NCBI GenBank assembly: GCA_963921275.4
Contig: OZ001293.3
Location: forward strand, 2,592,001 to 2,656,000
Length of the DNA stretch: 64,000 bases
DNA from: an uncultured Hormoscilla sp.
Lineage (GTDB): Bacteria; Cyanobacteriota; Cyanobacteriia; Cyanobacteriales; Desertifilaceae
Direction: 5' to 3'
Under the pieces are notes generated by a model. The model saw only the letters and a list, made by a program, of their open reading frames with translations. It searched no databases and was not told the origin of the DNA. Within the stretch, counting starts at the first letter, position 1, and each line of letters starts with the position of its first letter. The translations under genes were made by a program, and so were the position numbers. Shown here one piece after another: positions 3,025-55,767 of this stretch.

Positions 3025-5240
3025 TTTTGTTAACCTCCTTATTATCAACTCTTGTGGAAGTGAAAAGTTGAGCAATTAAATAAACTGCCATTCCCGCCGC
3101 CATACCGGGAAGCGTTTCGTTAACCCCATCGGACAGCTTCAATTCTATCCAGGTCAAAGCTGTACCGATGCCCACTAGCATCATGGCGATCGCCACGGGC
3201 GCACTTACGTTTTTCTGCCAAACCCGCAGGACCAATAACGGACCCAGACCAGATGCTAGGGCCGACCAGGAGAAAATTACCAACGCAAATATGTTGTCTG
3301 GAGCCAATATGGCGATCGCCACAACCAGTATTGTCACTAACAGAGTCCATAGCTTTGCCAGAGTATAAGAATTGACAGCGGCAGAAAAAATATCTCGACC
3401 CAGGGTAGCAGAACAAGAGAGAATCTGAGAGTCAGCAGTGAAAATGTGCGATGAGTTCTAGCCTAACGTAGTCAAACACGGAACGCTAGCCTAGGAAACT
3501 AGGAACTCTGATATTCATGGGGGTTCAATTCCTCTCCCCCAGGTACGGGGGTGACACCGGTCCTCAGTGCTGCGGAGCAACATCACCGTGGTGCCAAGCG
3601 AGGACTTAAATGTAGGATAGCTGGCAGCCTAAGCCGGTGACGCCGCTAGGAAAGATGGCCAAGGTTAGAGCAAGCGAACCCATGCAAGCCTCGTAAAGCT
3701 AAACCAGCGAAATAAGGCTTTATGCGCTGGCCCAAAAGGGGAAGTAGTTAGTATTGGTTATATTTTCTGGCCAATATCGTATTCAAAGAACTACCGGGGT
3801 ATAGTGGGGACCTAAAGTCATCGTGAAATGGTATCAGGGAACGAAGTAACCCCTCGTGTGCTGTCCATCGGGACAAGTCAGATGTGGAGCGAATGCCACG
3901 GGTGGGAAAGATGGCCCGAGAAGCTAATGCCTGGAGTAATGTCCACGGATAGGGATACGGATACGTATCCGCAGACGCGGGTCGGTGATAGTTGGAAACC
4001 TTCGGTAAAAGTAACCTTAAATACGCAGCGGTACTGAGTCCGGCGCTAGCTGGGCGACAGTTTGGATAAGTCCTCTGGACAAAGGGGTGAAGTAGCAGGA
4101 GGCAAGGGATAACAGGAGCAATCCTCAGTAAACCTACCCGTGACAAGGGCCAACTACCCAGTAGCCGTGTGCGGCTCCAGTCGCATGCACGGTTCCTCAA
4201 GGGAGGGTTGGGGAGCGATTCCCAGCGAGACCCCTAATAGTTCCCGCAAACAGTCCTGCCAACATCACTCCCACCAAGCCAACTGGTAATAATTCTAGTG
4301 CTAAATAGGGCAGGGTCAATTCCGGACCCCCTCCACTCATCAACTCTGGCATCAAGACTCTGCCTGTCAGTCCGATCGTCGTCGCCGTCAAGGAATTAAC
4401 CAGAAAGCAGATGCTTCTCACGTTGTTAGCCAAATCCATGTTATCTTCAGAATCGATCGCCATTGCCCGCACCATAATGTGAGGTTGACCGACTACGCCC
4501 AAACCGCTAACCAACCACCCGATCGCAAAAGGCAATACACCCCAGGCTAGATTTGGTGGATTCAAACTGACCAATGCCGGGTCAATAACGCCAAGTTTTC
4601 GACTCAATTCCATCACGCCACCGCAACTAGCAACCGCCACCACTGACAGCAGCAGTAAGGAACCAACCATCAAGATACCCTGGGCCGCATCGGTCCAGAT
4701 GGAGGCGCGGATACCCCCAGAAAAACAGTAGATGATAACGATGAAGGCTCCCAGTACGATACCAAAATAATAGTTCCAACCAAAGATCGCATTCAGGGCC
4801 TTGCTGCCAGCTACCAGTTGGGCGGCGGCATAAGCACCCAGAAACGCTATAGTAATTATCCCCGAGAGTGCGGCGATCGCCCGACCTGATTTTGCGGCCA
4901 GGAAAGAGGAGAAAGTCTCCGCATCCCTTTGGGCAGATATTTTTCTTAACCGCTTGCCCACCAACCACCAAGAGATATGCTGTCCCACCGTCGCGCTAAC
5001 AATACACCATATAGAAGCCAATACTAGTTTGTAGCTAAAACCGACCACACCTGCAAATAGAAAGCCACTCTGAGTGGTTGCCATCGCCGATAGCCTCGTC
5101 AGCCAGGGATTTACATTTCTGCTAGCTAGCAGGTAATCTGTAGTGGTCTTTTGCTTGCGCAACAGCGCCAATGTTCCCACCAATACAAATAATAGGAGAA
5201 AGGCGACGAAAGTAACCGCAATAGATGTTCTATCGTTCAT
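3014..5240 (-). pseudogene. Sodium:solute (PutP-like) symporter interrupted by an antisense group II intron
   Basis: Joining 5240-4239 to 3445-3014 gives 1434 nt in frame (..LFAGT|IFTADSQIL..), matching the paralog's LFAATISTADSQIL. The intron is on the opposite strand. Confidence 0.85.
3446..4238 (+). mobile_element. ORF-less group II intron, diverged sister type (793 nt)
   Basis: 5' end GTGCG. Domain V AGCCGTGTGCGGCTCCAGTCGCATGCACGGTTC. Domain VI ends ...GAGACCCCTAAT. EBS1 ATTTTC (3762-3767) pairs with the 5' flank GAAAAT. No RT ORF. Confidence 0.9.
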
Positions 5241-6370: not shown

Positions 6371-8285
6371 TCACAGATTGGTATACTTAAACTTAGAGCC
6401 ACAAGCTACAGGAATCCGTCTCGCTGCCCCACGCCATAACTCCAATGCCACATCGGACAAATTTTGACCATCCGCCTGGAGCATCCGCGAGATCATGCTA
6501 ATATTGCCAAAAGACCAAAACAAGCCCGCCTCCAGCAGATACGGCTCGTTGGTTTCGGCATGCACTCTGAAGTCATACAGGGAGTAATCGCGACCGCCCA
6601 AAGCTATATGTGCCCGCTTGGCTGCATCAGAGATTTTCTCCCATAAAGAAGGCGTGACATTCCCCGGACAGACGGGTTTCACTGCTGGCTTGTCAGGTTG
6701 TTTCCTGGGCAGTCCGTCCCCTTGCAGGTCATACTTATCACGTACAGTTCTAATGGGATTGTCCTTGGTGACTAAATACTCGATCGTCGGCAGCACCCAT
6801 AACTTCCCCTCACGTTCGACTACCCCCACGCGCAGTTCCCGTCCGGGGATGTAATCTTCTACCAACAAGGTCTCGTCATGTTCAAACCCCACCCGCAATG
6901 CTTCAACTATTTGATCTTCTTCCCAAACCAAAGTCAAGCCCAAAGAATTATCTTCCGAGTTCGGCTTCACCATAAATGGGGGCTGCATGGTCACGGTATC
7001 CCCCTGGCGCACAACTTGGGCCTTGGCCACCGGGACACCAGATGCTGACACGACGCTTCTGGTTTGAGCTTTGTTAGTTGCCAGGGCAGTACAACTAGGT
7101 GGCGACCCCACTACTGGTAGCCCGAGGATGTCCTCGAAGAATCCACGGAAACTAATCATCCCTGGGACACAGAACATATGCGGCACTACTACATCCACCT
7201 CCGGTAGCCCCGCGATCGCCTCTTGGAGGGGCATCTTCTCTGATGGATGGGGTCGAGCCGGGAATCGCTTCCCGACCCTCCCTTGAGGAACCGGACTTGC
7301 GATTTTCACCGCATCCGGCTACTGGGTACTAGGCCCTTTTCATAGGTAGACTTAATAGGAATTACTTCCGTTAGCCCTTGCCGCCTGTCTTTTCTTCCCT
7401 TTCCTGGTTTAGCGAGTGGTTGTTCTGATAACCGTTAGTATCACCATTTTCAAGTCAGTTTTACCAGTTATCCATACCTTATCCTCCACTTGCGTTTCGG
7501 ATTAGTTCCGTGGCTTTTTAGGATTACTCATTCCAGCAGCTTCCTAGTATCACCGACCCACGTCAGCGCTGGCTACCCAGCATCATCTACATTACTGTAG
7601 ATGTTATCCCAGGAATTACCCCGGGCATTCGCTTCTTGGGCCATCCCTCCCCCCGTGGCTTGCGCTTAACATCTAACTTGTCCTGATGGACAGCACACGA
7701 GAGGTTACTTCGTTCCCTAACAACATTTCGCGATACCTTTAGGTCCACACTATACCCCGGGAGCTATTTGAGTACTATATTAGCCAGAGTCTAAAACTAA
7801 TACTAGCTACCATTTCCTTTTTAGGCCAGCGCATATAGCCTTATTTCGCTGGTTCCTTATAACGAGGCTTGCACATGTTTGCCTGCTCTAACCTTGGATA
7901 TCTTTCCTAGCGGCGTCACCGGCTTAGGCTGCCAGTTATCCTACATTTGAGTCCTCGCTTAGCACCACGATGATGTCGCTTCGTAGCACCGAGGACCGGT
8001 GTCACCCCCGTACCTGGGGGGAGGGGAATTTAACCCCCATGCGGTCAGAGTTCCCGGCTAATGAAACCGGGCTAGCGTTCCGTGTTTGACCACGTTAGGC
8101 TAGAACGAATCGCACAGACTGTCTAAGGATGCACCTAGCTGCCAAAGACCATCCGGGTGTACCACGGCGTAGTAGCTACTGACACCAATTGGTTGCACTA
8201 CTTCCCTTGCGTAGATTACCGACAGGTTGTAGTAGAAGTCGGATACGCGAGAACCTGCTAGGTGCAAAACTCGCAAGCAAGGCAT
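6371..8285 (-). CDS. mysD: D-Ala-D-Ala ligase-like MAA ligase, copy 1; exons 8285-8116 and 7244-6371, 347 aa if spliced
   Basis: Exon 1 MPCLRVLHLAGS..LDS joins exon 2 SEKMPLQEAI..VVPHMFCVPGM..KPNSEDNSLG..YSLYDFRV..EAGL. Total 1044 nt in frame. Lies in a mysABC context. Confidence 0.85.
7245..8115 (-). mobile_element. ORF-less group II intron, main family, copy 1 (871 nt), in mysD1
   Basis: 5' end GTGCGATTCGTTCTAG. Domain V AGCCGGATGCGGTGAAAATCGCAAGTCCGGTTC. Domain VI ends ...CTCGACCCCATCC. Confidence 0.93.
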
Positions 8286-9551: not shown

Positions 9552-9555
9552 ATGC

Positions 9556-11790: not shown

Positions 11791-13720
11791 TTACGTTTTC
11801 TCTGCTTTCGCAGCGTACTTAAACTTGGCACCACAAGCTACACGAGTACGCCGAAGAGCCGCCGCACTCCACAACTCCCATGCCAGATCGGACAAACTTT
11901 GGCCATCCGCCTGCAGCATCCGCGAGATCATGCCAATTTTGCTGAAAGATCCATACAAACTCGCCTCCAGCATATAGGGCTCATCTGTCTCGGCATGCAC
12001 TCGGAAGTCATACAGGGAGCATTCGCGACAGCCCAAAGCTATATGTGCCCGCTTCACTGCATCAGAGATTTTCTCCCATAAAGAAGGCGTGACCTTAGCC
12101 GGACACACTGGCTTCACTGCTGGCTTGTCAGGTTGTTTCCTCGGCAGTCCGTCCCCTTGCAGGTCATACTTATCACGTAAAGTTCTAATGGGATTGTCGG
12201 AGGTGACTAAATACTCGATCGCTGGCAGCACCCATAACTTCCCCTCACGCTCGACTACTGCCACCCGCAGTTCCCGTCCGGGGATGTAATCTTCTACCAA
12301 CAAGGTTTCGTCATGTTCAAACCCCACCCGCAATGCTTCAACTATTTGATCTTCTTCCCAAACCAAAGTCAAGCCCAAAGAATTATCTTCCGAGTTCGGC
12401 TTAACTATAAATGGGGGCTGCATGGTCACGCTATCCCCTCGGCGCACAACTTGGGCCTTGGCGATCGGGACACCATAGGCTGATACTACGCTTCTGGTTT
12501 GAGCTTTGTTAGTTGCTAGGGCCGTACAACTAGGTGGCGACCCCACTACCGGTAGCCCGAGGATGTCCTCGAAGAGCCCACGGAAACTGGTCATCCCTGG
12601 GACACAGAACATATGCGGCACTACTACATCCACCTCCGGTAGCCCCGCGATCGCCTCTTGGAGGGGCATCTTCTCTGATGGATGGGGTCGAGCCGGGAAT
12701 CGCTTCCCGACCCTCCCTTGAGGAACCGGACTTGCGATTTTCACCGCATCCGGCTACTGGGTACTAGGCCCTTTTCATAGGTAGACTTAATAGGAATTAC
12801 TTCCGTTAGCCCTTGCCGCCTGTCTTTTCTTCCCTTTCCTGGTTTAGCGAGTGGTTGTTCTGATAACCGTTAGTATCACCATTTTCAAGTCAGTTTTACC
12901 AGTTATCCATACCTTATCCTCCACTTGCGTTTCGGATTAGTTCCGTGGCTTTTTAGGATTACTCATTCCAGCAGCTTCCTAGTATCACCGACCCACGTCA
13001 GCGCTGGCTACCCAGCATCATCTACATTACTGTAGATGTTATCCCAGGAATTACCCCGGGCATTCGCTTCTTGGGCCATCCCTCCCCCCGTGGCTTGCGC
13101 TTAACATCTAACTTGTCCTGATGGACAGCACACGAGAGGTTACTTCGTTCCCTAACAACATTTCGCGATACCTTTAGGTCCACACTATACCCCGGGAGCT
13201 ATTTGAGTACTATATTAGCCAGAGTCTAAAACTAATACTAGCTACCATTTCCTTTTTAGGCCAGCGCATATAGCCTTATTTCGCTGGTTCCTTATAACGA
13301 GGCTTGCACATGTTTGCCTGCTCTAACCTTGGATATCTTTCCTAGCGGCGTCACCGGCTTAGGCTGCCAGTTATCCTACATTTGAGTCCTCGCTTAGCAC
13401 CACGATGATGTCGCTTCGTAGCACCGAGGACCGGTGTCACCCCCGTACCTGGGGGGAGGGGAATTTAACCCCCATGCGGTCAGAGTTCCCGGCTAATGAA
13501 ACCGGGCTAGCGTTCCGTGTTTGACCACGTTAGGCTAGAACGAATCGCACAGACTATCTAAGGATGTGCCTAGCTGCCAAAGGCCATCGGGGTGTACCAC
13601 GGCGTAGTAGCTACTGACACCAACTGGTTGCACTACTTCCCTTGCGTAGATTACCGACAGGTTGTAGTAGAAGTCGGATACGCGAGAACCTGCTAGGTGC
13701 AAAACTCGCAAGCAAGGCAT
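11791..13720 (-). CDS. mysD: D-Ala-D-Ala ligase-like MAA ligase, copy 2; exons 13720-13551 and 12679-11791, 352 aa if spliced
   Basis: Paralog of copy 1. The two exons total 1059 nt in frame once the intron is removed. Confidence 0.85.
12680..13550 (-). mobile_element. ORF-less group II intron, main family, copy 2, in mysD2
   Basis: Same 871-nt sequence and same insertion codon as copy 1. Confidence 0.93.
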
Positions 13721-15193: not shown

Positions 15194-15279
15194 TGTCAGT
15201 TTGTAGGGTGGGCATTGCCCACCAAGTTAGATGGCACTGACTTAAGGTTGGTGGGCGGTGCCCACCAACCTTCTGCGCC

Positions 15280-18863: not shown

Positions 18864-19742
18864 ATGCCAGTAAAAAAACTACAGGCATTTGCCAAGTCTA
18901 TCTATCTGGAGAGGGTCTATCGTTCTATTATCAGAGAGCGGATAAAACAAATGCCGATAATTCAGGAAATGGATCGGATTAGGGAAAGTTCTCGATATCA
19001 AGACCCAAAAAGTTTAATTCCTTTTGGGTATAAGATATATTCGCAAACTGATGAAGACGGAATGATCGCAGAAATCTTCAGAAGGATTGGCTCAACAAAT
19101 AAAGTCTTTGTCGAATTTGGCATTGGGAATGGTTTGGAAAACAATACTATTTCTCTTCTATTTGATGATTGGCAAGGTTTATGGATTGAAGCCTCTTCAC
19201 GTTATGTAAAGGCAATCCGCAAGTATTTTGATCAAATCATAGAAAATGGGCAATTAAAAGTTGTGCAATCATTTATTACCAAGGATAATATCAATGACTT
19301 GATTTACGCCCAGATAAAAGATAAGGAAATCGACCTATTATCGGTTGATATTGATGGCAATGACTATCACGTTCTGAATGCAATAACCTGTATTAGACCA
19401 AGAGTAATCGCGATCGAATATAACGCCAAGTTTCGACCGCCAATTTTATATTGTATGGATTACGATGAATCATATACTTGGGAAAAAGATGATTGCGGTG
19501 GAGCTTCATTGAAGTTTCTGGAGGTAAATTTAGATAAAAAAGGTTATTGCCTTGTGGGTTGTAATATATCTGGTGTCAACGCATTTTTTGTGAGAAAAGA
19601 GCTAGTCGATGATAAATTTTTGGCTCCTTTTACTGCTGAAAATCATTATGAACCCCCAAGGTATTATTTTTCAGGATATTTCGCGGGCCATCGTTCTGCA
19701 TATAAAACCTTGGCAAAATCGCTAACCATGCGCTCCAGTTAA
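18864..19742 (+). CDS. FkbM/Methyltransf_21-like protein
   Basis: Motifs YSQTDEDG, FVEFGIGNGLENNT, DLLSVDIDGNDY, PRVIAIEYN and GVNAFFV. GAGGAGG RBS upstream. Confidence 0.6.
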   Translation: MPVKKLQAFAKSIYLERVYRSIIRERIKQMPIIQEMDRIRESSRYQDPKSLIPFGYKIYSQTDEDGMIAEIFRRIGSTNKVFVEFGIGNGLENNTISLLFDDWQGLWIEASSRYVKAIRKYFDQIIENGQLKVVQSFITKDNINDLIYAQIKDKEIDLLSVDIDGNDYHVLNAITCIRPRVIAIEYNAKFRPPILYCMDYDESYTWEKDDCGGASLKFLEVNLDKKGYCLVGCNISGVNAFFVRKELVDDKFLAPFTAENHYEPPRYYFSGYFAGHRSAYKTLAKSLTMRSS

Positions 19743-19859
19743 CTTCATTCGCTACCATTGAATACTGTAGGTTGGGTAGAGGGCCAGCGAAACCCAACAG
19801 GGCTTGCTGGTGTTGGGTTTCATGCCCAAACCCAACCTACAACTTAGCGATCGGTCTTT

Positions 19860-21224
19860 TTATTCCAGACCCAGATCGCTGAGGTACATTTCCACTCCTG
19901 CCCCACCATCGGGGAAGTTAGCACATAATGCCTTATGTTCGGATATAGCAGCTTCGAGCAATTCCTGCGGCACTTCTCGGGCATAGTCGCAGTTGCCAAT
20001 GCCGCCCCGAGGTAGGGGTGCCCACAGTCCGCCATCTCCCCGTTTGCGATTCATATTCTTCTGTCCGGAAATCATTAAATCAATGTCTTCCAGGATCGGA
20101 TGATAGACTGCCAAATCGAGGGTGCGAATCAGGGCAATGATCCGATCGCGTTCCGCAGCGGAGATCCAACCCATCATCGTGGCCAAAGTTGCCCCGAAGG
20201 CCATGCCGATGCTCACCGCGTGACCGTGCATCAGCCTCGCCGCGGGTTCATAACGGGGACTCCAAGTGTGACCGTAGGCGTGAGGCCGATCCTGATAGGT
20301 CTCGAACATGTTCGTCCCTTCGTGCTTCATATAGGAGAACAGTTCCCGGTAGATCACCTCATCGGCGATTTCCCCTAACTCTTCGTCTTCTTCAGTGGTA
20401 GCAAAGTGGGTTTCGATCAAGCGCTGACCGTATTTCTCCAGCAACTCAAAGAGAACTTTGTCATCTGTCACCGCCATCTTGATAATTTCGGCCATGCCAT
20501 TGCGGACGTGACCGGTGGGGAGGGTGCGGAATACACTCCGATCGACCAGAGTTAGCACCGGGGGATGATAAGCACCGATGCTGTTCTTGAATTGCTTGCC
20601 GTTGGTACAGGTGCGCGGTGACGGACCTGCATCAATCGCCGCGATCACCGTTGTCGGCACCATCACATAAGGAGTGCGGCGATGCTGTAAAGAACAGGCT
20701 AACCCCGCCACATCGGTGAGGACGCCACCGCCGATCACCAGCACTGGTTCGTTGCGAGACACGTCACAACCATCCTTGCCCAGGAATCCCAAAATACGGT
20801 GGACTGTTTCCGGAGTTTTGTCCGCTTCCCAGGCCCGGATCACCTGCATTTCCAGAGTAATTTCGTTGGTGTCAAAATAGCGACGCACCGACTCTCCGTA
20901 CAGCTCGTTCACGGTTTCGTCGATGACGGCAACACAGCGACCCCGACTATTATAGATTTCCGCCAGGGTGGGGTTTGACGGGTCAAATACCCCATCGACC
21001 AGCTTCACCTTGGCCGTCAGACTGTAGGTTGCAGAGACCTCGAACGATCGACCGTCCTTTCCTGGGAAGATCTGCCCTGAGCCAGTGTACCACTCTGAGG
21101 TACGATATATAGGGTCATGCTTTACCCCAATGTCCTTGTTTTCTGAGCGCTCGAACTGCTCTCTCAACTCTTCCTTGATCTTCTCTGTCAGTTCTGTTTG
21201 AGCGATTGCAGTTTGTAGACTCAT
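19860..21224 (-). CDS. mysA: Sedoheptulose-7-phosphate cyclase (demethyl-4-deoxygadusol synthase-like), divergent
   Basis: DHQS-superfamily motifs IGGGVLTDVAG, VPTT..AIDA, NGMAEIIK, AYGHTWSP and HGHAV. Lies upstream of mysB/C/D. Confidence 0.85.
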   Translation of the reverse strand: MSLQTAIAQTELTEKIKEELREQFERSENKDIGVKHDPIYRTSEWYTGSGQIFPGKDGRSFEVSATYSLTAKVKLVDGVFDPSNPTLAEIYNSRGRCVAVIDETVNELYGESVRRYFDTNEITLEMQVIRAWEADKTPETVHRILGFLGKDGCDVSRNEPVLVIGGGVLTDVAGLACSLQHRRTPYVMVPTTVIAAIDAGPSPRTCTNGKQFKNSIGAYHPPVLTLVDRSVFRTLPTGHVRNGMAEIIKMAVTDDKVLFELLEKYGQRLIETHFATTEEDEELGEIADEVIYRELFSYMKHEGTNMFETYQDRPHAYGHTWSPRYEPAARLMHGHAVSIGMAFGATLATMMGWISAAERDRIIALIRTLDLAVYHPILEDIDLMISGQKNMNRKRGDGGLWAPLPRGGIGNCDYAREVPQELLEAAISEHKALCANFPDGGAGVEMYLSDLGLE

Positions 21225-21903
21225 TATCTTTCTCTCTTTTTATTTGACACAACTGCCCGGTTCTGCCGCTTTTCGACGAACAGTGCGGCAGATTTTTGGC
21301 ATGCTTAATGGGCGATCTTCATCGCCTGAAGTAGTTGCTTTTCTGCCTCCTGTCATCCTTAGCTCATCTGACAGGGTTGACATAGCACTACCTCACGATC
21401 TACTCTCGAAGAGCGATCGCCTCAAACTTGTCTAAGTGTATCCGTCAATACACTTCCGTTGCTCGGTCTTTCTCCTGTAAGTTCTCTGTGCGAGCAACCG
21501 AGTTCTGGATACTCCTATATAGGTGTTTTACCTCTCAATATTGCTGTTGTGACTGAAAACAACTCGTCATTGTTCATCTTTGAGAGCTTCCACAACAGTA
21601 AATAGCCAGCATTTATATTTCGATCGGGGGTTAAACCTTTTTCTTTGCCAGGAACGAGCATGTCTTTCCTCTCTTTACTTTTCACCGGTTCTTGGTTTTG
21701 TTTAATCGTTATCATCCCGCATTTGGCGAGCCTTGAGCTGTCCCTATGGCAGGTCACCGTTCTCTCTCTTGTCAACCACCATTCGATCCCTCTGTATTCT
21801 TCCTACTTCTACTATAGCATATCTTGCTGCCGTTATCTACTCATCTCCAGAGAGCTCTGATTTTTTCCCTCTAGTACCTTTGGTCAGAACCCTTATCTAG
21901 TTT

Positions 21904-22774
21904 GTGCGATTCGTTCTAGCCTAACGTGGTCAAACACGGAACTCTAGCCCGGTTTCATTAGCCGGGAACTCTGACCGCATGGGGGTTAAATTCCCCTCCC
22001 CCCAGGTACGGGGGTGACACCGGTCCTCGGTGCTACGAAGCGACATCATCGTGGTGCTAAGCGAGGACTCAAATGTAGGATAACTGGCAGCCTAAGCCGG
22101 TGACGCCGCTAGGAAAGATATCCAAGGTTAGAGCAGGCAAACATGTGCAAGCCTCGTTATAAGGAACCAGCGAAATAAGGCTATATGCGCTGGCCTAAAA
22201 AGGAAATGGTAGCTAGTATTAGTTTTAGACTCTGGCTAATATAGTACTCAAATAGCTCCCGGGGTATAGTGTGGACCTAAAGGTATCGCGAAATGTTGTT
22301 AGGGAACGAAGTAACCTCTCGTGTGCTGTCCATCAGGACAAGTTAGATGTTAAGCGCAAGCCACGGGGGGAGGGATGGCCCAAGAAGCGAATGCCCGGGG
22401 TAATTCCTGGGATAACATCTACAGTAATGTAGATGATGCTGGGTAGCCAGCGCTGACGTGGGTCGGTGATACTAGGAAGCTGCTGGAATGAGTAATCCTA
22501 AAAAGCCACGGAACTAATCCGAAACGCAAGTGGAGGATAAGGTATGGATAACTGGTAAAACTGACTTGAAAATGGTGATACTAACGGTTATCAGAACAAC
22601 CACTCGCTAAACCAGGAAAGGGAAGAAAAGACAGGCGGCAAGGGCTAACGGAAGTAATTCCTATTAAGTCTACCTATGAAAAGGGCCTAGTACCCAGTAG
22701 CCGGATGCGGTGAAAATCGCAAGTCCGGTTCCTCAAGGGAGGGTCGGGAAGCGATTCCCGGCTCGACCCCATCC
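21904..22774 (+). mobile_element. ORF-less group II intron, main family, copy 3 (apparently intergenic, upstream of mysA)
   Basis: 871 nt, GTGCG...CCCCATCC. EBS2 ATAAGG at 22159-22164 and EBS1 AGACTC at 22227-22232. Confidence 0.93.
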
Positions 22775-22868: not shown

Positions 22869-22998
22869 TATCACATAAGCTTGGATAATGCAAGGGTATA
22901 TCTCCCCTGTTTACAACATTCCTTACTCTGCCGATCGCCGCCGGCGTGCGCGCAGCGCAATCCCGAGCCTATCAGCAAGAGGTTGGCGCAGCATCTAC
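22869..22998 (+). repeat. 130-bp diverged direct repeat, unit 1
   Basis: TATCACATAAGCTTGGATAATGCAAGGG...GCAGCATCTAC recurs at 23890-24019. Confidence 0.85.
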
Positions 22999-23007
22999 CG
23001 TAAACTA

Positions 23008-23880
23008 GGGTGTGTCATCAATCAAATTGCTTGACAGAAGTAGATGGATACGGTATGGAGTCCTTATCCAGCAATAACAATCAAGAGGGCATGATATGAG
23101 ACGCTATGGCTTGCGAGACGACCAGTGGGAACGGATCGAACACCTTTTACCTGGTAAAGAGGGTGACCCAGGCGCTACAGCCAAGAACAATAGATTATTC
23201 GTGTTCTGCCGTGTTATATCGATATCGTGCTGGCATTCCCTGGCGGGATTTACCGGAGTGTTTTGGGGATTTTCGGGTTGTTCATACCCGCCATACCCGT
23301 TGGTCTGAAAAGGGAGTTTGGAAGCAGGTATTCGATGTCTTGGCCTCAGACGCCGATAACGAATACGCCGCGATTGATGCCACCATCCTGCGTGCCCATC
23401 AACGAGCGTGCGGGTGCAAAAAAAAACACCCTCAGATACGTGCGAAACCCAAGCCATAGGCCGTAGTAAAGGGGGACTATCGACAAAGATTCATGCCACT
23501 TGCGATTGCCCAAGGCAATCCCACAGGATTTCATCTTACCCCTGGCCAAGCCCACGACGGGAAAGGCGCTGACGTGCTATTGGATAAAATCGGTGAGATT
23601 GGCGCGCTGCTTGCAGATAAAGCCTATGATGCGGAACAACGTGTGCTCGAGCGCCTGAAAGAGGCGGATTGGATGGCTGTCATTCCTCCAAAAAGTAACC
23701 GCACAGAACACAGAGAAGACGATGAAGAAATGTACAAGTGGCGGCATCTAATTGAAAATCTATTCCAAAAACTCAAGCAATACAGGGCTCTGGCGACACG
23801 CTACGATAAAACGGCTCGCAATTTCTTGGGTGCCATCTACCTCGCGGCAGCTGTAATATGGCTTAATTGATGACACGCCC
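23008..23880 (+). mobile_element. IS5-family insertion sequence, 873 bp, copy 2
   Basis: Same translated ORFs as 1280-2152. TIRs flanked by TA. Confidence 0.92.
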
Positions 23881-23889
23881 TAATCAATT

Positions 23890-24019
23890 TATCACATAAG
23901 CTTGGATAATGCAAGGGTAGATCTCCCCTGTTTAAAACCTTCCCTACTCCGCCGATTGCCGCCGGCGTGCGCGCAGCGCAATCCCGATACTGTCAGCAAG
24001 GGGTTGCCGCAGCATCTAC
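23890..24019 (+). repeat. 130-bp diverged direct repeat, unit 2
   Basis: Colinear with 22869-22998, with scattered substitutions. Confidence 0.85.
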
Positions 24020-28275: not shown

Positions 28276-31200
28276 CTACACGAAGACGAAATTATCTGCT
28301 GTGAGAGCCGTAGCAGTGGATGGGGTCGAGCCGGGAATCGCTTCCCGACCCTCCCTTGAGGAACCGGACTTGCGATTTTCACCGCATCCGGCTACTGGGT
28401 ACTAGGCCCTTTTCATAGGTAGACTTAATAGGAATTACTTCCGTTAGCCCTTGCCGCCTGTCTTTTCTTCCCTTTCCTGGTTTAGCGAGTGGTTGTTCTG
28501 ATAACCGTTAGTATCACCATTTTCAAGTCAGTTTTACCAGTTATCCATACCTTATCCTCCACTTGCGTTTCGGATTAGTTCCGTGGCTTTTTAGGATTAC
28601 TCATTCCAGCAGCTTCCTAGTATCACCGACCCACGTCAGCGCTGGCTACCCAGCATCATCTACATTACTGTAGATGTTATCCCAGGAATTACCCCGGGCA
28701 TTCGCTTCTTGGGCCATCCCTCCCCCCGTGGCTTGCGCTTAACATCTAACTTGTCCTGATGGACAGCACACGAGAGGTTACTTCGTTCCCTAACAACATT
28801 TCGCGATACCTTTAGGTCCACACTATACCCCGGGAGCTATTTGAGTACTATATTAGCCAGAGTCTAAAACTAATACTAGCTACCATTTCCTTTTTAGGCC
28901 AGCGCATATAGCCTTATTTCGCTGGTTCCTTATAACGAGGCTTGCACATGTTTGCCTGCTCTAACCTTGGATATCTTTCCTAGCGGCGTCACCGGCTTAG
29001 GCTGCCAGTTATCCTACATTTGAGTCCTCGCTTAGCACCACGATGATGTCGCTTCGTAGCACCGAGGACCGGTGTCACCCCCGTACCTGGGGGGAGGGGA
29101 ATTTAACCCCCATGCGGTCAGAGTTCCCGGCTAATGAAACCGGGCTAGCGTTCCGTGTTTGACCACGTTAGGCTAGAACGAATCGCACAACCCCAATAAG
29201 GGTTAGAGAGTCATCATCATCGAAAGTGATGACTGTATTAGATCCATTTTGGGTAGTTGCCCCTAAAACCGCTGTTAAATCAGGGAATCAAAAAGCGCTA
29301 ACGTCAATAGCATCCTCAGAGATGTCGAAGTCGGTAATAGCATCCGCACTACCACTATCGGTAGCGACGAAAGTATCTGCTGCTGCTCCCAGACTCACCG
29401 TAACGGCTGTACCGGAGTTTTGGGTGAAACTGTCACTCCCACCTCCAAGTAAAACATCACCGTTGAGAGTACCATTATTGACAACATTGATGCTACCAAG
29501 AGAGCCACTAGCATGAATAGCAGCGTTCCCGTTACCACCTGTAATAGTACCCCCAGCTTCGTTGGTGATGGTGCCGTTAAACGCTACACCTGCCTGAATG
29601 AGGATACCAGCACTTTCCTCAGAAGCAATGGTACCGGAGTTAGTGATGGAACCTGTTACCGTAGCTCCTGCTGTACCGCTGAAGAAGCGAATCCCAGCGG
29701 GAACATTATCAGCACCCCGCCCTCGAATTGAACCCTGGTTTGAGATGACAATATTCTCAGAAGTTGCATCCTCATCAACTTCGCCAATTTCAGCTGAGAT
29801 CCCGCTACCGGAATTCCCGGCTCCTGCATCGATAGTACCACTACTATTGATAGTAATGCCATCTGCTGTGCCATCTAAGTAAATAGTACCATTGCGCTGA
29901 TCTCCTGTTTTCAGAATCTGCCCGGTGTTAATTAGGGTGACGCCATTACCGTCCAAGTTCACTGCACGACTGTCGGAGGATATGGTTCCTGCATTTAATA
30001 TGGTCAAATCATGGTCAGCATTACCAATATAAAGACTATTATTTGGTCCTTCAATCTCACCACTGTTGGTGATCGTGCCATCGAAAGCCACTCCATCTTC
30101 TACCAAAATCCCGCCCACAGTGCCAGTTTCTGCTTCGGTTGAGATGATATTGAAGTTGGTAATATAAGCTGTTACAGTGGCTTCTCCTTCAGCAGCAGTC
30201 AAACCGCTGAAGAAGCGGATCCCAGCGGGAACATTATCAGCACCCCGCCCTCGAATTGAACCCCGGTTTGAGATGACAATATTCTCAGAAGTTGCATCCT
30301 CATCAACTTCGCCAATTTCAGCTGAGATCCCGCTACCGGAATTCCCTGCTCCTGCATCGATGGTACCACTACTATTGATAGTAATGCCATCTGCTGTGCC
30401 ATCTAGGTAAATATTACCATTGCGCTGATCCCCCGTTCCCAGAATCTGCCCACTGTTATTCAGGGTGACATTATCCCCGTCCAAGTTGACTGCACGACTG
30501 TCGGAGGATATGGTTCCTGCATTTAATATGGTCAAATCATGGTCAGCATTAACAATATAAAGACCATTATTTGGTCCTTCAATCTCGCCACCATATCTGT
30601 TAGCGATCGTGCCATCGAAAGCCACTCCATCTTCTACCAAAATCCTGCCCACAGTGCCAGTTTCTGCTTCGGTTGAGATGATATTGAAGTTGGTAATATA
30701 AGCTGTTACAGTGGCTTCTCCTTCAGCAGCAGTCAAACCGCTGAAGAAGCGGATCCCAGCGGGAACATTATCAGCACCCCGCCCTCGAATTGAACCCCGG
30801 TTTGAGATGACAATATTCTCAGAAGTTGCATCCTCATCAACTTCGCCAATTTCAGCTGAGATCCCGCTACCGGAATTCCCTGCTCCTGCATCGATGGTAC
30901 CACTACTATTGATAGTAATGCCATCTGCTGTGCCATCTAGGTAAATAGTACCATTGCGCTGATCTCCTGTTCCCAGAATCTGCCCACTGTTATTCAGGGT
31001 GACATTATCCCCGTCCAAGTTGACTGCACGGCTATCTGAAGATATCTCCCCTGAATTTTTAATCCTGAGATTGTGGCGAGCATTACCAACGTAAATACCA
31101 TTGATATCTCCTTCAATCTCACCCCACAAACGGTTGTTGATAATACCATTGAAAGCGACCCCATCTTGAACCACAATTGCACCGCCAGCGTCTATCTCAG

Positions 31201-45495: not shown

Positions 45496-47317
45496 ATGGA
45501 TGTTTCTCTGAGCAGCTCTCAGGTAAAGCAAAAAGCGCTAGAATTGGGCTTCCATAAGGTGGGCATAGCGGCTATAGATGCTAAAACTGTCAGTAAAGCA
45601 GTTGAACGTTTACAGGCATGGCTAGGAAATGGCTACCAGGCGGATATGGAATGGATGGCAAACCCTAAGCGTCAAGATATCCGTCAGGTAATGCCTTCAG
45701 TTCAGTCTATTATTACGGTAGCTCTCAATTACTATACTGCTCATCAGCGTCCTGAAGGGAGTCAGTACGGAAAAATCTCTCGCTATGGGTGGGGACGGGA
45801 CTATCATCGGGTGATGGACAAAAAGCTGAAACTGTTAGCAAACTGGCTGCGATCGCACTCTTGTGGAGTGGAAGTGCGTTACTATGCTGATACGGGACCT
45901 GTTCAGGATAAGGTATGGACCCAGGCGGCGGGGATTGGCTGGATTGCCAAGAATGGTAATGTAATTACGCGGGAGTATGGGTCTTGGGTATTTTTGGGAG
46001 AAGTGTTGACGAATATAGTTTTAACCCCAGATGGGCCCCATACTGAACATTGTGGCACTTGTACTCGCTGTATAGACGCTTGTCCTACGGGGGCGATCGC
46101 CCAGCCCTTTGTAGTAGACGCTAATCGCTGTATTGCCTATCATACGATCGAGAATCGTGCCGACAGTTTACCCCTAGCGATCGGGTCTCATCTAGAGGGT
46201 TGGGTTGCGGGTTGCGACATTTGCCAAGATGTCTGTCCCTGGAATCAGCGGTTTGCCAAAGAAACCGACATTACTGAGTTTGTGCGATTCGTTCTAGCCT
46301 AACGTGGTCAAACACGGAACGCTAGCCCGGTTTCATTAGCCGGGAACTCTGACCGCATGGGGGTTAAATTCCCCTCCCCCCAGGTACGGGGGTGACACCG
46401 GTCCTCGGTGCTACGAAGCGACATCATCGTGGTGCTAAGCGAGGACTCAAATGTAGGATAACTGGCAGCCTAAGCCGGTGACGCCGCTAGGAAAGATATC
46501 CAAGGTTAGAGCAGGCAAACATGTGCAAGCCTCGTTATAAGGAACCAGCGAAATAAGGCTATATGCGCTGGCCTAAAAAGGAAATGGTAGCTAGTATTAG
46601 TTTTAGACTCTGGCTAATATAGTACTCAAATAGCTCCCGGGGTATAGTGTGGACCTAAAGGTATTGCGAAATGTTGTTAGGGAACGAAGTAACCTCTCGT
46701 GTGCTGTCCATCAGGACAAGTTAGATGTTAAGCGCAAGCCACGGGGGGAGGGATGGCCCAAGAAGCGAATGCCCGGGGTAATTCCTGGGATAACATCTAC
46801 AGTAATGTAGATGATGCTGGGTAGCCAGCGCTGACGTGGGTCGGTGATACTAGGAAGCTGCTGGAATGAGTAATCCTAAAAAGCCACGGAACTAATCCGA
46901 AACGCAAGTGGAGGATAAGGTATGGATAACTGGTAAAACTGACTTGAAAATGGTGATACTAACGGTTATCAGAACAACCACTCGCTAAACCAGGAAAGGG
47001 AAGAAAAGACAGGCGGCAAGGGCTAACGGAAGTAATTCCTATTAAGTCTACCTATGAAAAGGGCCTAGTACCCAGTAGCCGGATGCGGTGAAAATCGCAA
47101 GTCCGGTTCCTCAAGGGAGGGTCGGGAAGCGATTCCCGGCTCGACCCCATCCAACCCCTATCCCGAGAATCTGACTCCCAAGTTGAGCGAATTGGCAGAA
47201 ATTTCTGATGCGGAGTAGAACCGGCGATTTCCCGCTTCGGCCCTGCGGCGGATTAAACCAGAGATGCTGCGGCGAAATGCTCGTGCTAACCTGGAAGCAG
47301 ATGCGCTCGTTGAATAA
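45496..47317 (+). CDS. queG: Epoxyqueuosine reductase; exons 45496-46281 and 47153-47317, premature TAG at 47216
   Basis: Motifs [29 protein letters not shown] and [12 protein letters not shown]. Spliced junction reads [24 protein letters not shown]. Confidence 0.9.
46282..47152 (+). mobile_element. ORF-less group II intron, main family, copy 5, in queG
   Basis: 871 nt, sense, junction TTT|AAC. Confidence 0.93.
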
Positions 47318-53154: not shown

Positions 53155-54873
53155 ATTAAACTAAGCCAGTCCGTCACCGGACCGACTCGTTTTCAAAACC
53201 GGACGTGAGATTTTCACCTCATCCGGCTCCTCAGTAACGCCATCCTTGTCATGGACACGGCAACTACCGTCACTGGCAGTCTTGATATCGTGGCAATGTT
53301 TGTGTAGCAGTTGTAGGTTGTCCCACTGGTCCTTACCACCTAATGAGAGTGGCTTGATGTGGTCTACTTCCCATCTGTCGTTATCCTTAAACGTTAGTCC
53401 GTATTGTTGACATTTCCCCTTTTGCCTTTTCAGTAGCATAGCTACTCGGTTACTTAATTCCGGGTTTTTGCCTAGTCTTGTGCTCCAATATGTGAGGTTC
53501 CCGTCGTATGGGCTAGCTCTTCCTTTCACTTTAATGTGTCTCACTATCCCTACACTTGCGTGTCGATTTAGTGTTACCTCCCTTTTATCTTCACACCGGA
53601 ATCGCCATTGTCCATCTTGGTCCACTGACCAGTATTTTTGGGCTATCCAATGCTTTGACTTGTTGGCGTGTCTTCTCTTTGCCCAATCCTACAGGATTTT
53701 CCATAGGTAATCGTCCATGTCCGAGTAAACTTCTTTGCTTACTCCTGTCCTGAAGTAGTTTGCCCATCCTCGTATTATCGGGTTGAGTTTGCTAATCAGG
53801 GCGTCTTGTGGAGCTGCTCTGTAACTGTTTACTATCTCTTTTAACCTTTCTTTGTGCTTACCTGTGGATTTATTACTGGGTTTGATGAGGGTCTTGTAAC
53901 CTAGGGGTTTTCCATGTCCGTTCTTGCTGCTTCTATTCTTACTAATCTCATATTGCCTTACGTTGAACCCCAAGAAGTCGAATCCTGGTTCTTCTCCCTC
54001 TAGCGTATGAGCTATTTTTGTCTTTTCCGGCTTCAATTCTAGTCCAACCCCTTTCTGCCACTCTGCTATGACCACTTGCGCCTCTTCTATCTTCTTTCTA
54101 TCCTCATGCATTACCACAAGGTCATCGGCGTATCTGACCACTGTCAGCTTCTCCTTCTCTCTTTGTGTTTTTACAAGTTCCATCACAGCCTCCTCTAGCC
54201 CATGTAGAGCTATGTTTGCCAGTAACGGTGATATGACTCCTCCCGTACCCTCTTTGGTTGCATACCATTCTTTCTTGTCTATCACCCCGGCTTTTAACCA
54301 TGCCCGTATTTGTTTACGGATTGGTGAAGTCGTATTCAGTTTTTCTATCAGCGCTTTATGGTCAATCTTATCAAAGCATTTTGCAATGTCAGCATCTAAT
54401 ACCCATTTGGGTTTGTACCTAATGCTGTTGAATATTGCTTCGATTGCATCGTGGCATCCTCTTCCAGGTCTGAATCCGTAGGAGTTACCTTCCATATACG
54501 CTTCCCATTCAGGATAACTGCGCAATTTTCAGTAACCCCTGTGTCGCTCGGTCGTGCATTGTAGGTATTCCTAATGGACGTTTTTCGTCTCTCCCTGGCT
54601 TGGGTATCCACACTCGTCGCGCGGGCCGAGCTTGGCTGGAGATTTCTATTTGTCCTACCAGTTCTAGTCGTTGCTTTGGGGTTAGTGATTTCACACCATC
54701 CACACCTGCCGTTTTCTTTCCCTGGTTGTCTTGTGTTACCTGCCGTACCGCTAGACTTTTGGCAGCCCGGGATTTTACCAGCATCATCTGTAAGTTGTCA
54801 GGGCTAATGAAACCCTGCTATCTGGGACAGCTTTTGAATTGTGTCAAGTCGGTTTAATCTAAACGAATCGCAC
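53155..54873 (-). mobile_element. ltrA: Degenerate RT/maturase/HNH-encoding group II intron (chloroplast-like class)
   Basis: GTGCG start at 54873. RT motifs GKKTAGVDG, RPLGIPT, SYGFRPGR, DADIAKCFD, YADD and FDFLGF; HNH EVDH..NLQLLH. Domain V GAGCCGGATGAGGTGAAAATCTCACGTCCGGTT; ends TTAGTTTAAT. Two frameshifts, PQ missing from GTPQGG, most of domains I-III deleted. Confidence 0.9.
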
Positions 54874-54896: not shown

Positions 54897-55767
54897 GGAT
54901 GGGGTCGAGCCGGGAATCGCTTCCCGACCCTCCCTTGAGGAACCGGACTTGCGATTTTCACCGCATCCGGCTACTGGGTACTAGGCCCTTTTCATAGGTA
55001 GACTTAATAGGAATTACTTCCGTTAGCCCTTGCCGCCTGTCTTTTCTTCCCTTTCCTGGTTTAGCGAGTGGTTGTTCTGATAACCGTTAGTATCACCATT
55101 TTCAAGTCAGTTTTACCAGCTATCCATACCTTATCCTCCACTTGCGTTTCGGATTAGTTCCGTGGCTTTTTAGGATTACTCATTCCAGCAGCTTCCTAGT
55201 ATCACCGACCCACGTCAGCGCTGGCTACCCAGCATCATCTACATTACTGTAGATGTTATCCCAGGAATTACCCCGGGCATTCGCTTCTTGGGCCATCCCT
55301 CCCCCCGTGGCTTGCGCTTAACATCTAACTTGTCCTGATGGACAGCACACGAGAGGTTACTTCGTTCCCTAACAACATTTCGCGATACCTTTAGGTCCAC
55401 ACTATACCCCGGGAGCTATTTGAGTACTATATTAGCCAGAGTCTAAAACTAATACTAGCTACCATTTCCTTTTTAGGCCAGCGCATATAGCCTTATTTCG
55501 CTGGTTCCTTATAACGAGGCTTGCACATGTTTGCCTGCTCTAACCTTGGATATCTTTCCTAGCGGCGTCACCGGCTTAGGCTGCCAGTTATCCTACATTT
55601 GAGTCCTCGCTTAGCACCACGATGATGTCGCTTCGTAGCACCGAGGACCGGTGTCACCTCCGTACCTGGGGGGAGGGGAATTTAACCCCCATGCGGTCAG
55701 AGTTCCCGGCTAATGAAACCGGGCTAGCGTTCCGTGTTTGACCACGTTAGGCTAGAACGAATCGCAC
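54897..55767 (-). mobile_element. ORF-less group II intron, main family, copy 6
   Basis: 871 nt with two visible substitutions. Sense in the PAS kinase, junction AT|A. Confidence 0.93.

What the first reader, a model, noticed from the sequence alone, without database searches (positions are those of the whole stretch)
22159..22232. Readable targeting code: EBS1/EBS2 explain the seven relaxed insertion sites
Seen: the last 14 nt of the 5' flanks are TCCTTAGACAGTCT, TCCTTAGATAGTCT, CCCTTATCTAGTTT, CCCTTATTGGGGTT, ACATTACTGAGTTT, CTTCTATTGAGGAT and TCCTTCTGGAGACT, each followed by A. The consensus is CCTTATnGAGTCT|A. The intron has AGACTC in a hairpin loop (22227-22232; stem TATTAG/CTAATA) and ATAAGG (22159-22164), the exact complements. 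Sites tolerate wobbles and 1-2 mismatches. Inference: insertion occurred by reverse splicing with loose specificity, which would explain the genome-wide spread; the element is a compact, potentially retargetable ribozyme.
Basis: partly seen in the sequence, partly recalled or inferred. Interest (0 to 1): 0.75.

Follow-up and report, generated by a model that had tools for sequence, protein, structure and literature searches.

The report
ORF-less group II intron targeting code
Seven nearly identical copies of a small self-splicing intron sit at places that match three short guide sequences inside the intron, which is the ordinary way group II introns choose targets, seen here at unusually high density inside the genes of a cyanobacterium.

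Summary
The window carries seven copies of an 871-nt ORF-less group II intron with only 5 variable columns. It also holds an 83% identical older copy and a 5'-truncated RT-encoding intron. The seven 14-nt flanks are as listed. AGACTC (22227-32) lies in a covarying hairpin loop. ATAAGG (22159-64) lies in a hypervariable stretch of a multi-branched loop, the subgroup IIB position of EBS2.

Two diverged relatives have different EBS1 sequences that each match their own flank 6/6. The "A" after each site is real. The intron ends ...CATCC, 2 nt beyond the Rfam match, as intact QueG homologs show. This A is IBS3, paired with a candidate EBS3 at U22267.

With the copies removed in silico, 6 of the 9 best-matching positions among 115,766 are occupied.

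Corrections:
- ATAAGG occurs three times, and complementarity alone is weak evidence.
- Canonical EBS2 is 5 nt.
- Sites carry 1-3 mismatches.
- Mobility needs a reverse transcriptase supplied in trans.

This is a new member of a known kind, closest to the Thermosynechococcus ORF-less introns. Genome-wide spread could not be tested.

The parts
21904..22774 (+). Copy c1 of the 871-nt ORF-less group II intron (GTGCGA...CCCCATCC)
   Evidence: blastn; boundaries; consensus fold into six domains
21891..21903 (+). Target site of c1: IBS2 21891-21896 (CCTTAT), spacer 21897, IBS1 21898-21903 (TAGTTT); IBS3 is A22775
   Evidence: IBS2 6/6 WC; IBS1 4 WC + 1 GU + 1 mismatch
22158..22164 (+).
   Evidence: Hypervariable 5-mer between invariant CTCGT.A and AACCAGCG in 5 sequences; lies in a multi-branched loop; layout as described in PMC8643678
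22167..22193 (+). Hairpin CCAGCG/CGCTGG whose loop carries a second ATAAGG (22175-22180). It is invariant in all relatives, so it is not EBS2
22216..22242 (+). EBS1 hairpin; EBS1 AGACTC at 22227-22232 in the loop
   Evidence: Stem shows compensatory changes at 4 pairs; loop 6-mer differs in all 5 lineages; best intron 6-mer against the seven IBS1, 31/42
22267..22267 (+). Candidate EBS3 (U), pairing with +1 A of the 3' exon
   Evidence: In the 3-nt internal loop 3' of helix 22151-56/22260-65; U/U/A versus +1 A/A/T in main, div and L002; inference from three lineages
22371..22376 (+). J2/3 (AGGGAT), with gamma candidate
   Evidence: GG in main and L002 (intron ends CC) versus AA in div (ends AT)
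22696..22774 (+). Domain 5 (22696-22733), domain 6 (22737-22769) with bulged A22766, and 3' tail CATCC (22770-22774)
   Evidence: RF00029 at 44.4 bits, gathering 40; fold
7245..8115 (-). Copy c2, sense orientation, in an ATP-grasp (D-Ala-D-Ala-ligase-C) gene
12680..13550 (-). [quoted passage not shown] Flanks are 87-91% identical while the introns are 100% identical
28318..29188 (-). Copy c4, same strand as the 804-aa ORF and about 100 nt downstream of its stop; the frame continues across the junction
46282..47152 (+). Copy c5, sense orientation, in queG between codons ...TEF and NPY...
62312..63183 (-). Copy c6 (872 nt, one extra A), sense orientation, at the 3' end of a 261-aa ORF
54897..55767 (-). 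Copy c7, sense orientation, in a short ORF (...LLLR|I|IHPEDIW...) just upstream of the truncated RT intron
3446..4238 (+). Diverged family member 'div' (793 nt, 83% identical over its 5' 510 nt), antisense within a sodium:solute symporter gene. Its own EBS1 ATTTTC matches its flank GAAAAT
   Evidence: the interrupted gene is 793 nt longer than its paralog over the gap
53155..54793 (-). 5'-truncated group II intron of another family. Its RT/maturase/HNH protein is broken into three ORFs, so it is not a working source of IEP

Best explanation
The region 22159-22232 holds the two 5'-exon guide sequences of an 871-nt ORF-less subgroup IIB (IIB2-like) group II intron.

The guide elements are:
- EBS2 (UAAGG, 22160-64, possibly extended by A22159), which pairs with positions -13..-9 (-8) of the target.
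- EBS1 (AGACUC, 22227-32), which pairs with -6..-1.
- A third single-base guide, most likely U22267 (EBS3), which pairs with the A at +1.

Shown here:
- Seven almost identical copies exist.
- Their junctions are exact.
- The guide positions are the hypervariable, structurally expected ones.
- The guides covary with flanks in relatives.
- The code predicts which sites in the window are occupied.

Inferred from established group II intron biology:
- The excised intron RNA, bound to a reverse transcriptase/maturase made by another intron of the same genome, reverse-spliced into DNA at these sites and was copied into DNA.
- All seven sites carry 1-3 mismatches and identical EBS sequences, so this was a recent burst of relaxed-specificity retrohoming or retrotransposition from one master sequence.
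- Copies in sense orientation can be spliced out of host mRNAs.
For: - Seven copies show 5 singleton differences in 872 columns, and the EBS1/2/3 sequences are identical.
- The flanks are as listed, with pairing 9-11 of 12 against a background mean of 4.29; 0.5% of 113,984 positions reach 9 or more.
- After in-silico removal of the copies, 4 of the 5 positions with at least 10 WC pairs and +1 A are occupied, and 6 of the 9 with at least 9. This is out of 115,766 positions (hypergeometric P = 1.8e-25).
- In the 5-lineage alignment, the two guide segments are the variable islands in conserved context.
- div has EBS1 ATTTTC against flank GAAAAT, 6/6. L002 has TGCACA against TGTGCA, 6/6.
- IBS2 scores 3/5 WC in div, 3 WC plus 1 GU of 5 in L002, and 4/5 WC in L001.
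- EBS3 candidate pairs with +1 as U-A, U-A and A-T.
- The consensus fold has 213 pairs, 49 with compensatory changes. EBS2 lies in a multi-branched loop and EBS1 in a hairpin loop.
- RF00029 scores above gathering in all copies.
- The 871-nt excision restores QueG as in 8 of 8 inspected homologs. The frames of the ATP-grasp genes, c4 and c7 agree.
- Nine of the 120 listed clusters of RT/maturases of 500 aa or more come from a contig of the same length (6,879,066 bp) as the window's own protein.
- Known precedent: Thermosynechococcus ORF-less introns mobilised in trans (PMC2882425: abstract and section 10).
Against: - No site is a perfect match.
- c7 has only 7 WC pairs of 12.
- The L001 relative fails at IBS1, with 1 WC and 1 GU of 6.
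- Runner-up intron 6-mers reach 29/42 against IBS1, versus 31/42 for the real EBS1.
- Both complements occur by chance in 5.9% of shuffles.
- The EBS2a/-14 pair, reported as essential for EcI5 mobility, is WC in only 1 of 7 sites (PMC8643678).
- Only three relatives with 5' flanks could be fetched.
- There is no working IEP in the window.
- No RNA or mobility data exist.
- The intron ends in CC rather than the usual AY.
Confidence: 0.9

Rival explanations
1. Same element and same code, but a different route. The insertions were ectopic retrotranspositions into transiently single-stranded DNA (replication forks or transcription bubbles) or into RNA. They were not endonuclease-assisted retrohoming into duplex DNA.
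For: - All seven sites are imperfect.
- The EBS2a/-14 pair, proposed to drive duplex unwinding, is missing in 6 of 7 sites but kept in 3 of 3 older relatives (PMC8643678).
- Six of the six copies in or next to ORFs are on the sense strand.
- None of the three best unoccupied sites is sense within an ORF.
Against: - The sense bias can equally come from selection.
- div and the copy seen through P0136 are antisense.
- The related IEPs carry HNH domains.
- c2 and c3 look like homing into paralogous sites.
- The sample is small.
Confidence: 0.3
2. The copies spread at the DNA level, by segmental duplication, gene conversion or recombination. The flank similarity would then reflect shared ancestry of the sites rather than RNA guidance.
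For: c2 and c3 lie in a duplicated gene cluster.
Against: - The c2/c3 flanks are 87-91% identical while the introns are 100% identical.
- The other five sites lie in unrelated sequence, and similarity stops at -14 and +1.
- Excision is exact in queG.
Confidence: 0.03
3. EBS2 is not 22159-64 but one of the other ATAAGG copies: the hairpin loop at 22175-80, or 22537 in domain 4.
For: All three give the same 34/42 score against the flanks. The 22175 copy sits in a hairpin loop, the IIA-type position.
Against: - The 22175 loop is invariant in five lineages whose IBS2 sequences differ.
- The 22159 segment varies. Its variants match the relatives' -13..-9 at 3 WC of 5 (div), 4 WC of 5 (L001), and 3 WC plus 1 GU of 5 (L002).
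- 22537 lies in the poorly conserved domain 4.
Confidence: 0.03
4. The complementarity is a post-hoc coincidence.
For: Both 6-mers occur in 5.9% of shuffled introns.
Against: Site occupancy statistics, structural placement and covariation in relatives.
Confidence: 0.01

Closest known systems
Thermosynechococcus elongatus TeI3/TeI4 group II intron families (Mohr, Ghanem & Lambowitz 2010, PMC2882425; abstract, section 10 and passages read)
   Same: - Cyanobacterial host.
- Families of identical ORF-less introns mobilised by IEPs of related introns.
- Families differ in EBS1/2/3.
- Target choice is mainly by base pairing, with little protein constraint.
- The concept of target-site saturation applies to both.
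   Different: - Those introns are described as IIB1 and EcI5-like; this one has IIB2 features.
- There, most sites have 0-1 mismatch, and most lie in intergenic DNA, other introns or IS elements. Here all seven have 1-3 mismatches, and 5 of 7 lie inside ordinary ORFs.
- There, ORF remnants show derivation by deletion; none were detected here.
- Relaxed targeting there is tied to high temperature. The closest relatives here are sponge-symbiont MAGs.
- Local load here is 7 copies in 64 kb (9.5% of the window) versus about 1.3% of that genome.
Cyanobacterial/chloroplast subgroup IIB2 (CL2) introns, and the EBS2a-IBS2a rule (Monachello et al. 2021, PMC8643678; abstract, section 10 and passages read)
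   Same: - EBS2 lies in a multi-branched loop.
- A 3-nt spacer has a variable middle base followed by A.
- The EBS2 duplex is 5 bp.
- EBS3 lies in an internal loop of ID.
- Extra stem-loops sit at the 5' base of domain I.
- D5 resembles plastid ndhA/ndhB D5 models.
   Different: - No ORF.
- The -14/EBS2a pair is WC in only 1 of 7 recent sites.
- The terminal dinucleotide is CC.
EcI5, Ll.LtrB and other 'targetron' introns (as summarised in PMC8643678 and in the listing of PMC3898094; details recalled)
   Same: Programmable recognition by EBS1, EBS2 and EBS3/delta. Natural relatives here show five different EBS1/EBS2 sets on one scaffold.
   Different: Those are RT-encoding and experimentally retargeted. 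Nothing has been tested for this element.
Relatives in Hormoscilla MAG contigs (L001 JACOMV010000367.1, L002 JACONN010000005.1, L003 JACOMV010000032.1)
   Same: 73-78% identical ribozyme scaffold with the same architecture.
   Different: Different EBS sequences and sites. L002 is 933 nt with a larger domain 4. L003 is 5'-truncated. L001 contains the antisense D5-D6 of another intron.

Membership tests
Group II intron ribozyme | 5' end GUGYG | tested here: met
   GTGCGA in all 7 copies, div, L001 and L002
Group II intron ribozyme | Domain 5/6 match to a curated covariance model | tested here: met
   RF00029 at 44.4 bits against a gathering score of 40 in each of the 7 copies
Group II intron ribozyme | Six-domain secondary structure supported by compensatory changes | tested here: met
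   RNAalifold on main, div and L002: 213 pairs, 49 with double changes, D1-D6 recognisable. This is a prediction from only 3 sequences. The Rfam D1-D4 models stayed below gathering (RF01999 at 22 versus 36)
Group II intron ribozyme | Bulged branch-point A in domain 6 near the 3' end | tested here: met
   Unpaired A22766, 8 nt before the last base. Lariat formation could not be tested
Group II intron ribozyme | 3' terminal AY | tested here: not met
   The main family and L002 end in CC; div ends AT and the L001 tail AC. J2/3 GG versus AA covaries with the terminus, so the end is probably functional
Group II intron ribozyme | Exact excision restores the host reading frame | tested here: met
   The queG junction TEF|NPYPEN equals that of 8 of 8 inspected intact homologs. 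The frames of four other ORF contexts (c2, c3, c4, c7) agree
Group II intron ribozyme | Self- or protein-assisted splicing activity | not testable with these tools
   No RNA data
Subgroup IIB (IIB2-like) | [quoted passage not shown] | tested here: met
   definition from PMC8643678
Subgroup IIB (IIB2-like) | EBS3 in an internal loop of ID pairs with +1 of the 3' exon | tested here: inconclusive
   U22267 fits in 3 of 3 lineages with known 3' exons, and +1 is A in 7 of 7 copies. Three lineages are too few
Subgroup IIB (IIB2-like) | EBS2a (middle of the 3-nt spacer) pairs with -14 | tested here: inconclusive
   WC in div, L001 and L002 (3 of 3) but in only 1 of 7 main-family sites
Subgroup IIB (IIB2-like) | [quoted passage not shown] | tested here: met
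   Hairpins at about 21916-21947 and 21948-21966 in the MFE and consensus folds. These are predictions
Subgroup IIB (IIB2-like) | CL2-class IEP | not tested
   The element has no ORF. The class of the genome's IEPs was not determined
Trans-mobilised ORF-less intron family (T. elongatus type) | Several near-identical ORF-less copies at different sites | tested here: met
Trans-mobilised ORF-less intron family (T. elongatus type) | Intact related IEPs in the same genome | tested here: met
   Nine of the 120 listed RT/maturase clusters (501-596 aa) come from a contig of 6,879,066 bp, the length given for the window's own QueG.
Trans-mobilised ORF-less intron family (T. elongatus type) | Derived from an ORF-containing intron, with ORF remnants in domain 4 | tested here: not met
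   tblastn of 11 IEPs against the intron gave no sense-strand hit better than E = 1.1
Trans-mobilised ORF-less intron family (T. elongatus type) | Mobility demonstrated | not testable with these tools
   Inferred only from copy identity and site pattern

The most novel reading that the evidence does not exclude
This ORF-less intron may have come close to saturating its relaxed target sites. Two thirds of the best sites in this window are occupied. If the window is typical of the 6.9-Mb genome, the intron would be present in hundreds of copies, mostly inside ordinary genes in sense orientation. That would be by far the heaviest and most eukaryote-like group II intron load reported in a bacterium. 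It would have been reached in a non-thermophile and without the EBS2a/-14 pair thought necessary for invading duplex DNA.
Probability: 0.3. Interest if true: 0.75.

Novelty: new member of a known kind. Interest (0 to 1): 0.4.

Why it matters
The mechanism itself is textbook: group II introns find targets through EBS-IBS pairing. This case adds the following:

- It is a clean natural example in which a three-part RNA code, read from the sequence alone, predicts 6 of the 9 best sites in 58 kb as occupied.
- It is a recently active ORF-less family inserted mostly within host genes. ORF-less introns are described as rare in bacteria (PMC4424553, passages). In Thermosynechococcus few introns sit in genes (PMC2882425, section 10).
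- It shows that the Rfam-based 3' boundary is off by 2 nt for this lineage, which matters for annotating the interrupted genes.
- It gives a natural test case for whether the EBS2a-IBS2a pair is dispensable.

No paper in the searched library links Hormoscilla with group II introns (0 papers). The main text of the comparative-genomics paper on these symbionts does not mention introns.

Tried and rejected
- **Plasmid collection.** blastn 'distant' gave no match.
- **Rfam D1-D4 models.** None reached gathering. The Rfam 3' end (...CAT) was taken as the boundary at first and then rejected on reading-frame and homolog evidence.
- **c7 nested in the neighbouring RT-encoding intron (twintron).** Rejected. 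The upstream 390 nt have no domain-I features or Rfam hit. c7 lies in a separate short ORF, and the RT intron is 5'-truncated.
- **Hairpin-loop ATAAGG at 22175 as EBS2.** Rejected because it is invariant.
- **Sense-only, transcription-coupled insertion.** Weakened by the antisense div copy and by the antisense copy read through by P0136.
- **IEP remnants in domain 4.** None significant.
- **Scoring that counts G-U pairs.** It lets in 11 unoccupied sites at 10 or more of 12 pairs with +1 A. WC-only scoring separates occupied from unoccupied sites much better.
- **Not attempted.** Replication-strand bias, IEP classification, and homolog checks of the ATP-grasp, c4 and c6 junctions.

Full report
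**What is in the window.**
- Rfam finds eight group II intron domain-5/6 matches. Seven are identical in score (RF00029, 44.4 bits). One different match lies at 53155-53231.
- blastn with the copy at the finding shows seven copies at 99.65-100% identity. It also shows an eighth, diverged copy, 83% identical over the first 510 nt.
- Aligned, the seven copies differ at 5 singleton columns of 872. c2, c3 and c4 are identical, and none of the differences touches the proposed guide sequences.
- The elements have no ORF.
- The window is cyanobacterial (petC, petA). Its QueG is 91% identical to that of Hormoscilla sp. MAGs, and the window's own protein is listed from a 6,879,066-bp contig.

**Checking the observation.**
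- AGACTC is at 22227-32, in a loop closed by TATTAG/CTAATA. ATAAGG is at 22159-64.
- The phrase "each followed by A" depends on where the intron ends. Rfam aligns the end to ...CCCCAT, which would make the 3' exon start CCA in all seven.
- That boundary is wrong by 2 nt. In queG (copy c5), only removal of 871 nt (GTGCG...CATCC) gives ...ETDITEF|NPYPENL.... Eight of 8 inspected intact homologs read ...EF(N/Q)PY... without an extra residue. Removing 869 nt shifts the frame, and 868 nt inserts a Ser.
- The reading frames of both ATP-grasp genes (c2, c3), of the ORF at c4 and of the ORF at c7 are continuous only with the same boundary.
- In relatives the corresponding tails are ACCCCTAAT, ACCCCTACC and ACCCCTAAC. 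The J2/3 dinucleotide is GG where the intron ends CC (main, L002) and AA where it ends AT (div). This is as expected for the gamma-gamma' contact (recalled).

**Are these really EBS1 and EBS2?**
- Complementarity alone is weak evidence. Both 6-mers appear in 5.9% of 20,000 shuffled introns, and ATAAGG occurs three times (22159, 22175, 22537).
- The decisive evidence is comparative. I fetched three relatives from Hormoscilla MAG contigs (73-78% identical) and aligned them with the main copy and the diverged window copy.
- Two short islands vary in all five lineages inside otherwise conserved sequence. One is the five bases after CTCGT-N-A (main TAAGG, 22160-64). The other is the six bases in the loop of the hairpin at 22216-42 (main AGACTC).
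- The second ATAAGG (22175-80) sits in an invariant hairpin loop and is therefore not a specificity element.
- A consensus fold of the three full-length sequences gives a six-domain structure with 213 pairs, 49 of them with compensatory changes. [quoted passage not shown]
- This is the layout that Monachello et al. describe for subgroup IIB: an 'EBS2 loop', a 3-nt spacer with EBS2a in the middle and an A on its 3' side, and a 5-bp EBS2 duplex (PMC8643678, passages).
- Two stem-loops at the 5' base of domain I and D5 similarity to plastid ndhA/ndhB models point to the IIB2 variety. The same paper says IIB2 is confined to cyanobacteria and chloroplasts.

**Covariation with the targets.**

| Lineage | EBS1 vs flank | IBS2 pairing | EBS2a / -14 |
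|---|---|---|---|
| div | ATTTTC vs GAAAAT, 6/6 WC | 3 of 5 WC | WC |
| L002 | TGCACA vs TGTGCA, 6/6 WC | 3 WC + 1 GU of 5 | WC |
| L001 | 1 WC + 1 GU of 6 | 4 of 5 WC | WC |

- L001's failure at IBS1 goes against the code and is unexplained.
- L003 is 5'-truncated and has no flank.
- For the 3' exon, the middle base of the 3-nt internal loop just 3' of helix 22151-56/22260-65 is U, U, A in main, div and L002. Their +1 bases are A, A, T. I therefore propose U22267 as EBS3. Three lineages make this an inference, not a proof.

**Statistics.**
- Against 113,984 background positions (both strands, introns masked), the mean is 4.29 pairs (WC+GU) of 12. 571 positions (0.50%) reach 9 or more, 74 reach 10 or more, and 7 reach 11 or more. 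The seven sites score 11, 10, 10, 11, 10, 10, 9.
- An unbiased scan of every intron 6-mer against the seven flanks ranks AGACTC at 22227 first for -6..-1 (31/42; next best 29). ATAAGG ranks first for -13..-8 (34/42; next best 28).
- The most telling test removes the seven copies in silico and scores all 115,766 positions by WC pairs only.

| Threshold (with +1 A) | Positions | Occupied |
|---|---|---|
| at least 10 of 12 WC | 5 | 4 |
| at least 9 of 12 WC | 9 | 6 |
| at least 7 of 12 WC | 375 | 7 |

- The hypergeometric P for 6 of 9 is 1.8e-25.
- Per site there are 1-3 true mismatches and 0-2 wobbles. -1 T, -4 G and -10 T are invariant.
- No site is a perfect match, so none looks like the original homing site.

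**Context of the copies.**
- c2 and c3 interrupt two paralogous ATP-grasp genes at the same codon. Their flanks are 86.7% (309 nt) and 91.0% (864 nt) identical, but the introns are 100% identical. This indicates two insertions (or conversion), not inheritance through the duplication.
- c5 is in queG. c6 is at the end of a 261-aa ORF. c7 is in a short ORF. c4 is about 100 nt past the stop of an 804-aa ORF, in the same frame. c1 is intergenic.
- All six copies in or next to ORFs are in sense orientation.
- The diverged copy is antisense in a symporter gene. That gene is exactly 793 nt longer than its paralog across the gap.
- There are no target-site duplications.
- The seven copies make up 9.5% of the window.

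**Source of the protein.**
- The only RT in the window belongs to a different, 5'-truncated intron (53155-54793, -). Its RVT_N, RVT_1+GIIM and HNH parts lie in three broken ORFs. It cannot be the helper.
- A search with its RT piece lists nine clusters of 501-596-aa RT/maturases among the best 120. They come from a contig of 6,879,066 bp, which I take to be the same genome.
- One of them (P0136) ends by reading 34 residues through an antisense copy of this very intron at 97% identity. This shows at least one further copy outside the window, inside an IEP gene.
- No ORF remnant is detectable in domain 4 (best sense-strand E = 1.1).

**Mechanism.**
- Shown: identity of the copies, exact junctions, position and variability of the guide segments, covariation, and site occupancy.
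- Inferred from established group II biology: the excised RNA, bound by an IEP supplied in trans, reverse-splices into DNA at sites paired with EBS2, EBS1 and EBS3 and is copied into DNA. Sense copies can splice out of mRNAs.
- Open point: the EBS2a/-14 pair is reported as essential for EcI5 integration into duplex DNA (PMC8643678 abstract and section 10). It is WC in 3 of 3 older relatives but in only 1 of 7 recent sites. This could mean a relaxed IEP, a single-stranded DNA route, or nothing (n = 7).

**Comparison with the known.**
- The closest system is the Thermosynechococcus elongatus intron population. It has 28 copies (about 1.3% of the genome), ORF-less families mobilised in trans, families defined by EBS1/2/3, and target-site saturation (PMC2882425 abstract and section 10).
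- Differences here:
  - IIB2-like rather than IIB1 structure.
  - All sites are mismatched.
  - Most copies lie in ordinary genes rather than in intergenic DNA, introns or IS elements.
  - No ORF remnant.
  - Much higher local density.
  - The host is related to tropical sponge symbionts rather than being a thermophile.
- ORF-less introns are called rare in bacteria (PMC4424553, passages).
- I found no paper that links Hormoscilla and group II introns (0 papers; no occurrence of 'intron' in the main text of PMC6520454).
- 'Retargetable' is plausible. Five natural EBS sets sit on one scaffold, and retargeting is the known principle of targetrons. It is untested here, and the element is not autonomous.

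**Verdict.**
- This is a new member of a known kind and of moderate interest.
- The open and more exciting question is the genome-wide copy number, which these tools could not reach.

Noticed in passing
window 47216-47218: queG exon 2 has an in-frame TAG where 8 of 8 inspected homologs have Trp. The intron-bearing gene may already be a pseudogene.
   Followed up: partly
window 1269-2154 and 22997-23882: Two 99.5% identical copies of an IS5-like element, each with DUF4096 + DDE_Tnp_1 ORFs. The second copy is flanked by 130-bp direct repeats, 22869-22998 and 23890-24019, 91.5% identical.
   Followed up: partly
window 4200-21224, - strand: A partly duplicated cluster that looks like mycosporine-type biosynthesis and transport: DHQ-synthase-like, O-methyltransferases, two ATP-grasp genes, NAD-binding, EamA, and SSF symporters. 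Three of its genes are interrupted by introns (c2, c3, div). The cluster assignment is recalled, not tested.
   Followed up: no
window 53155-54793, - strand: A 5'-truncated RT-encoding group II intron of another family. Similarity to intact IEPs starts at about residue 45, and the protein is in three broken ORFs. It lies only about 100 nt downstream of copy c7.
   Followed up: partly
protein P0136 (same-length contig, outside the window): A 503-aa RT/maturase whose last 34 residues are the antisense translation of the ORF-less intron's D6-D5 (97% identical). This indicates a further copy inserted antisense in an IEP gene. P0150 ends similarly in a more diverged relative.
   Followed up: partly
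window 22167-22193: A hairpin whose 15-nt loop (containing the second ATAAGG) is conserved in five lineages that are otherwise 73-83% identical, with its AATAAGGCT core invariant in all five. It is probably a tertiary-contact motif of unknown partner.
   Followed up: no
window 22770-22774 and 22371-22376: The main family and L002 end in CC instead of the usual AY. J2/3 GG/AA covaries with the terminal CC/AT. The Rfam model mis-places the 3' end by 2 nt.
   Followed up: yes
L001:1182-1255 (- strand): The D5-D6 of a second intron lies antisense inside the first intron of this Hormoscilla MAG contig, a nested arrangement cut by the contig end.
   Followed up: no
window 32764-36563: A choice-of-anchor/phytase-like/PhoD phosphatase gene is split over three overlapping ORFs, suggesting frameshifts.
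   Followed up: no
window 29288-29290: The stop codon of the 804-aa ORF lies about 34 codons before copy c4, and the same frame continues open across the intron site to a stop 13 codons later. This is either a nonsense mutation or a 3'-UTR insertion.
   Followed up: no
window 59258 (-), 56017 (+), 63952 (+): These are the three unoccupied positions with at least 9 WC pairs and +1 A. None lies in sense orientation inside an ORF of my list.
   Followed up: partly
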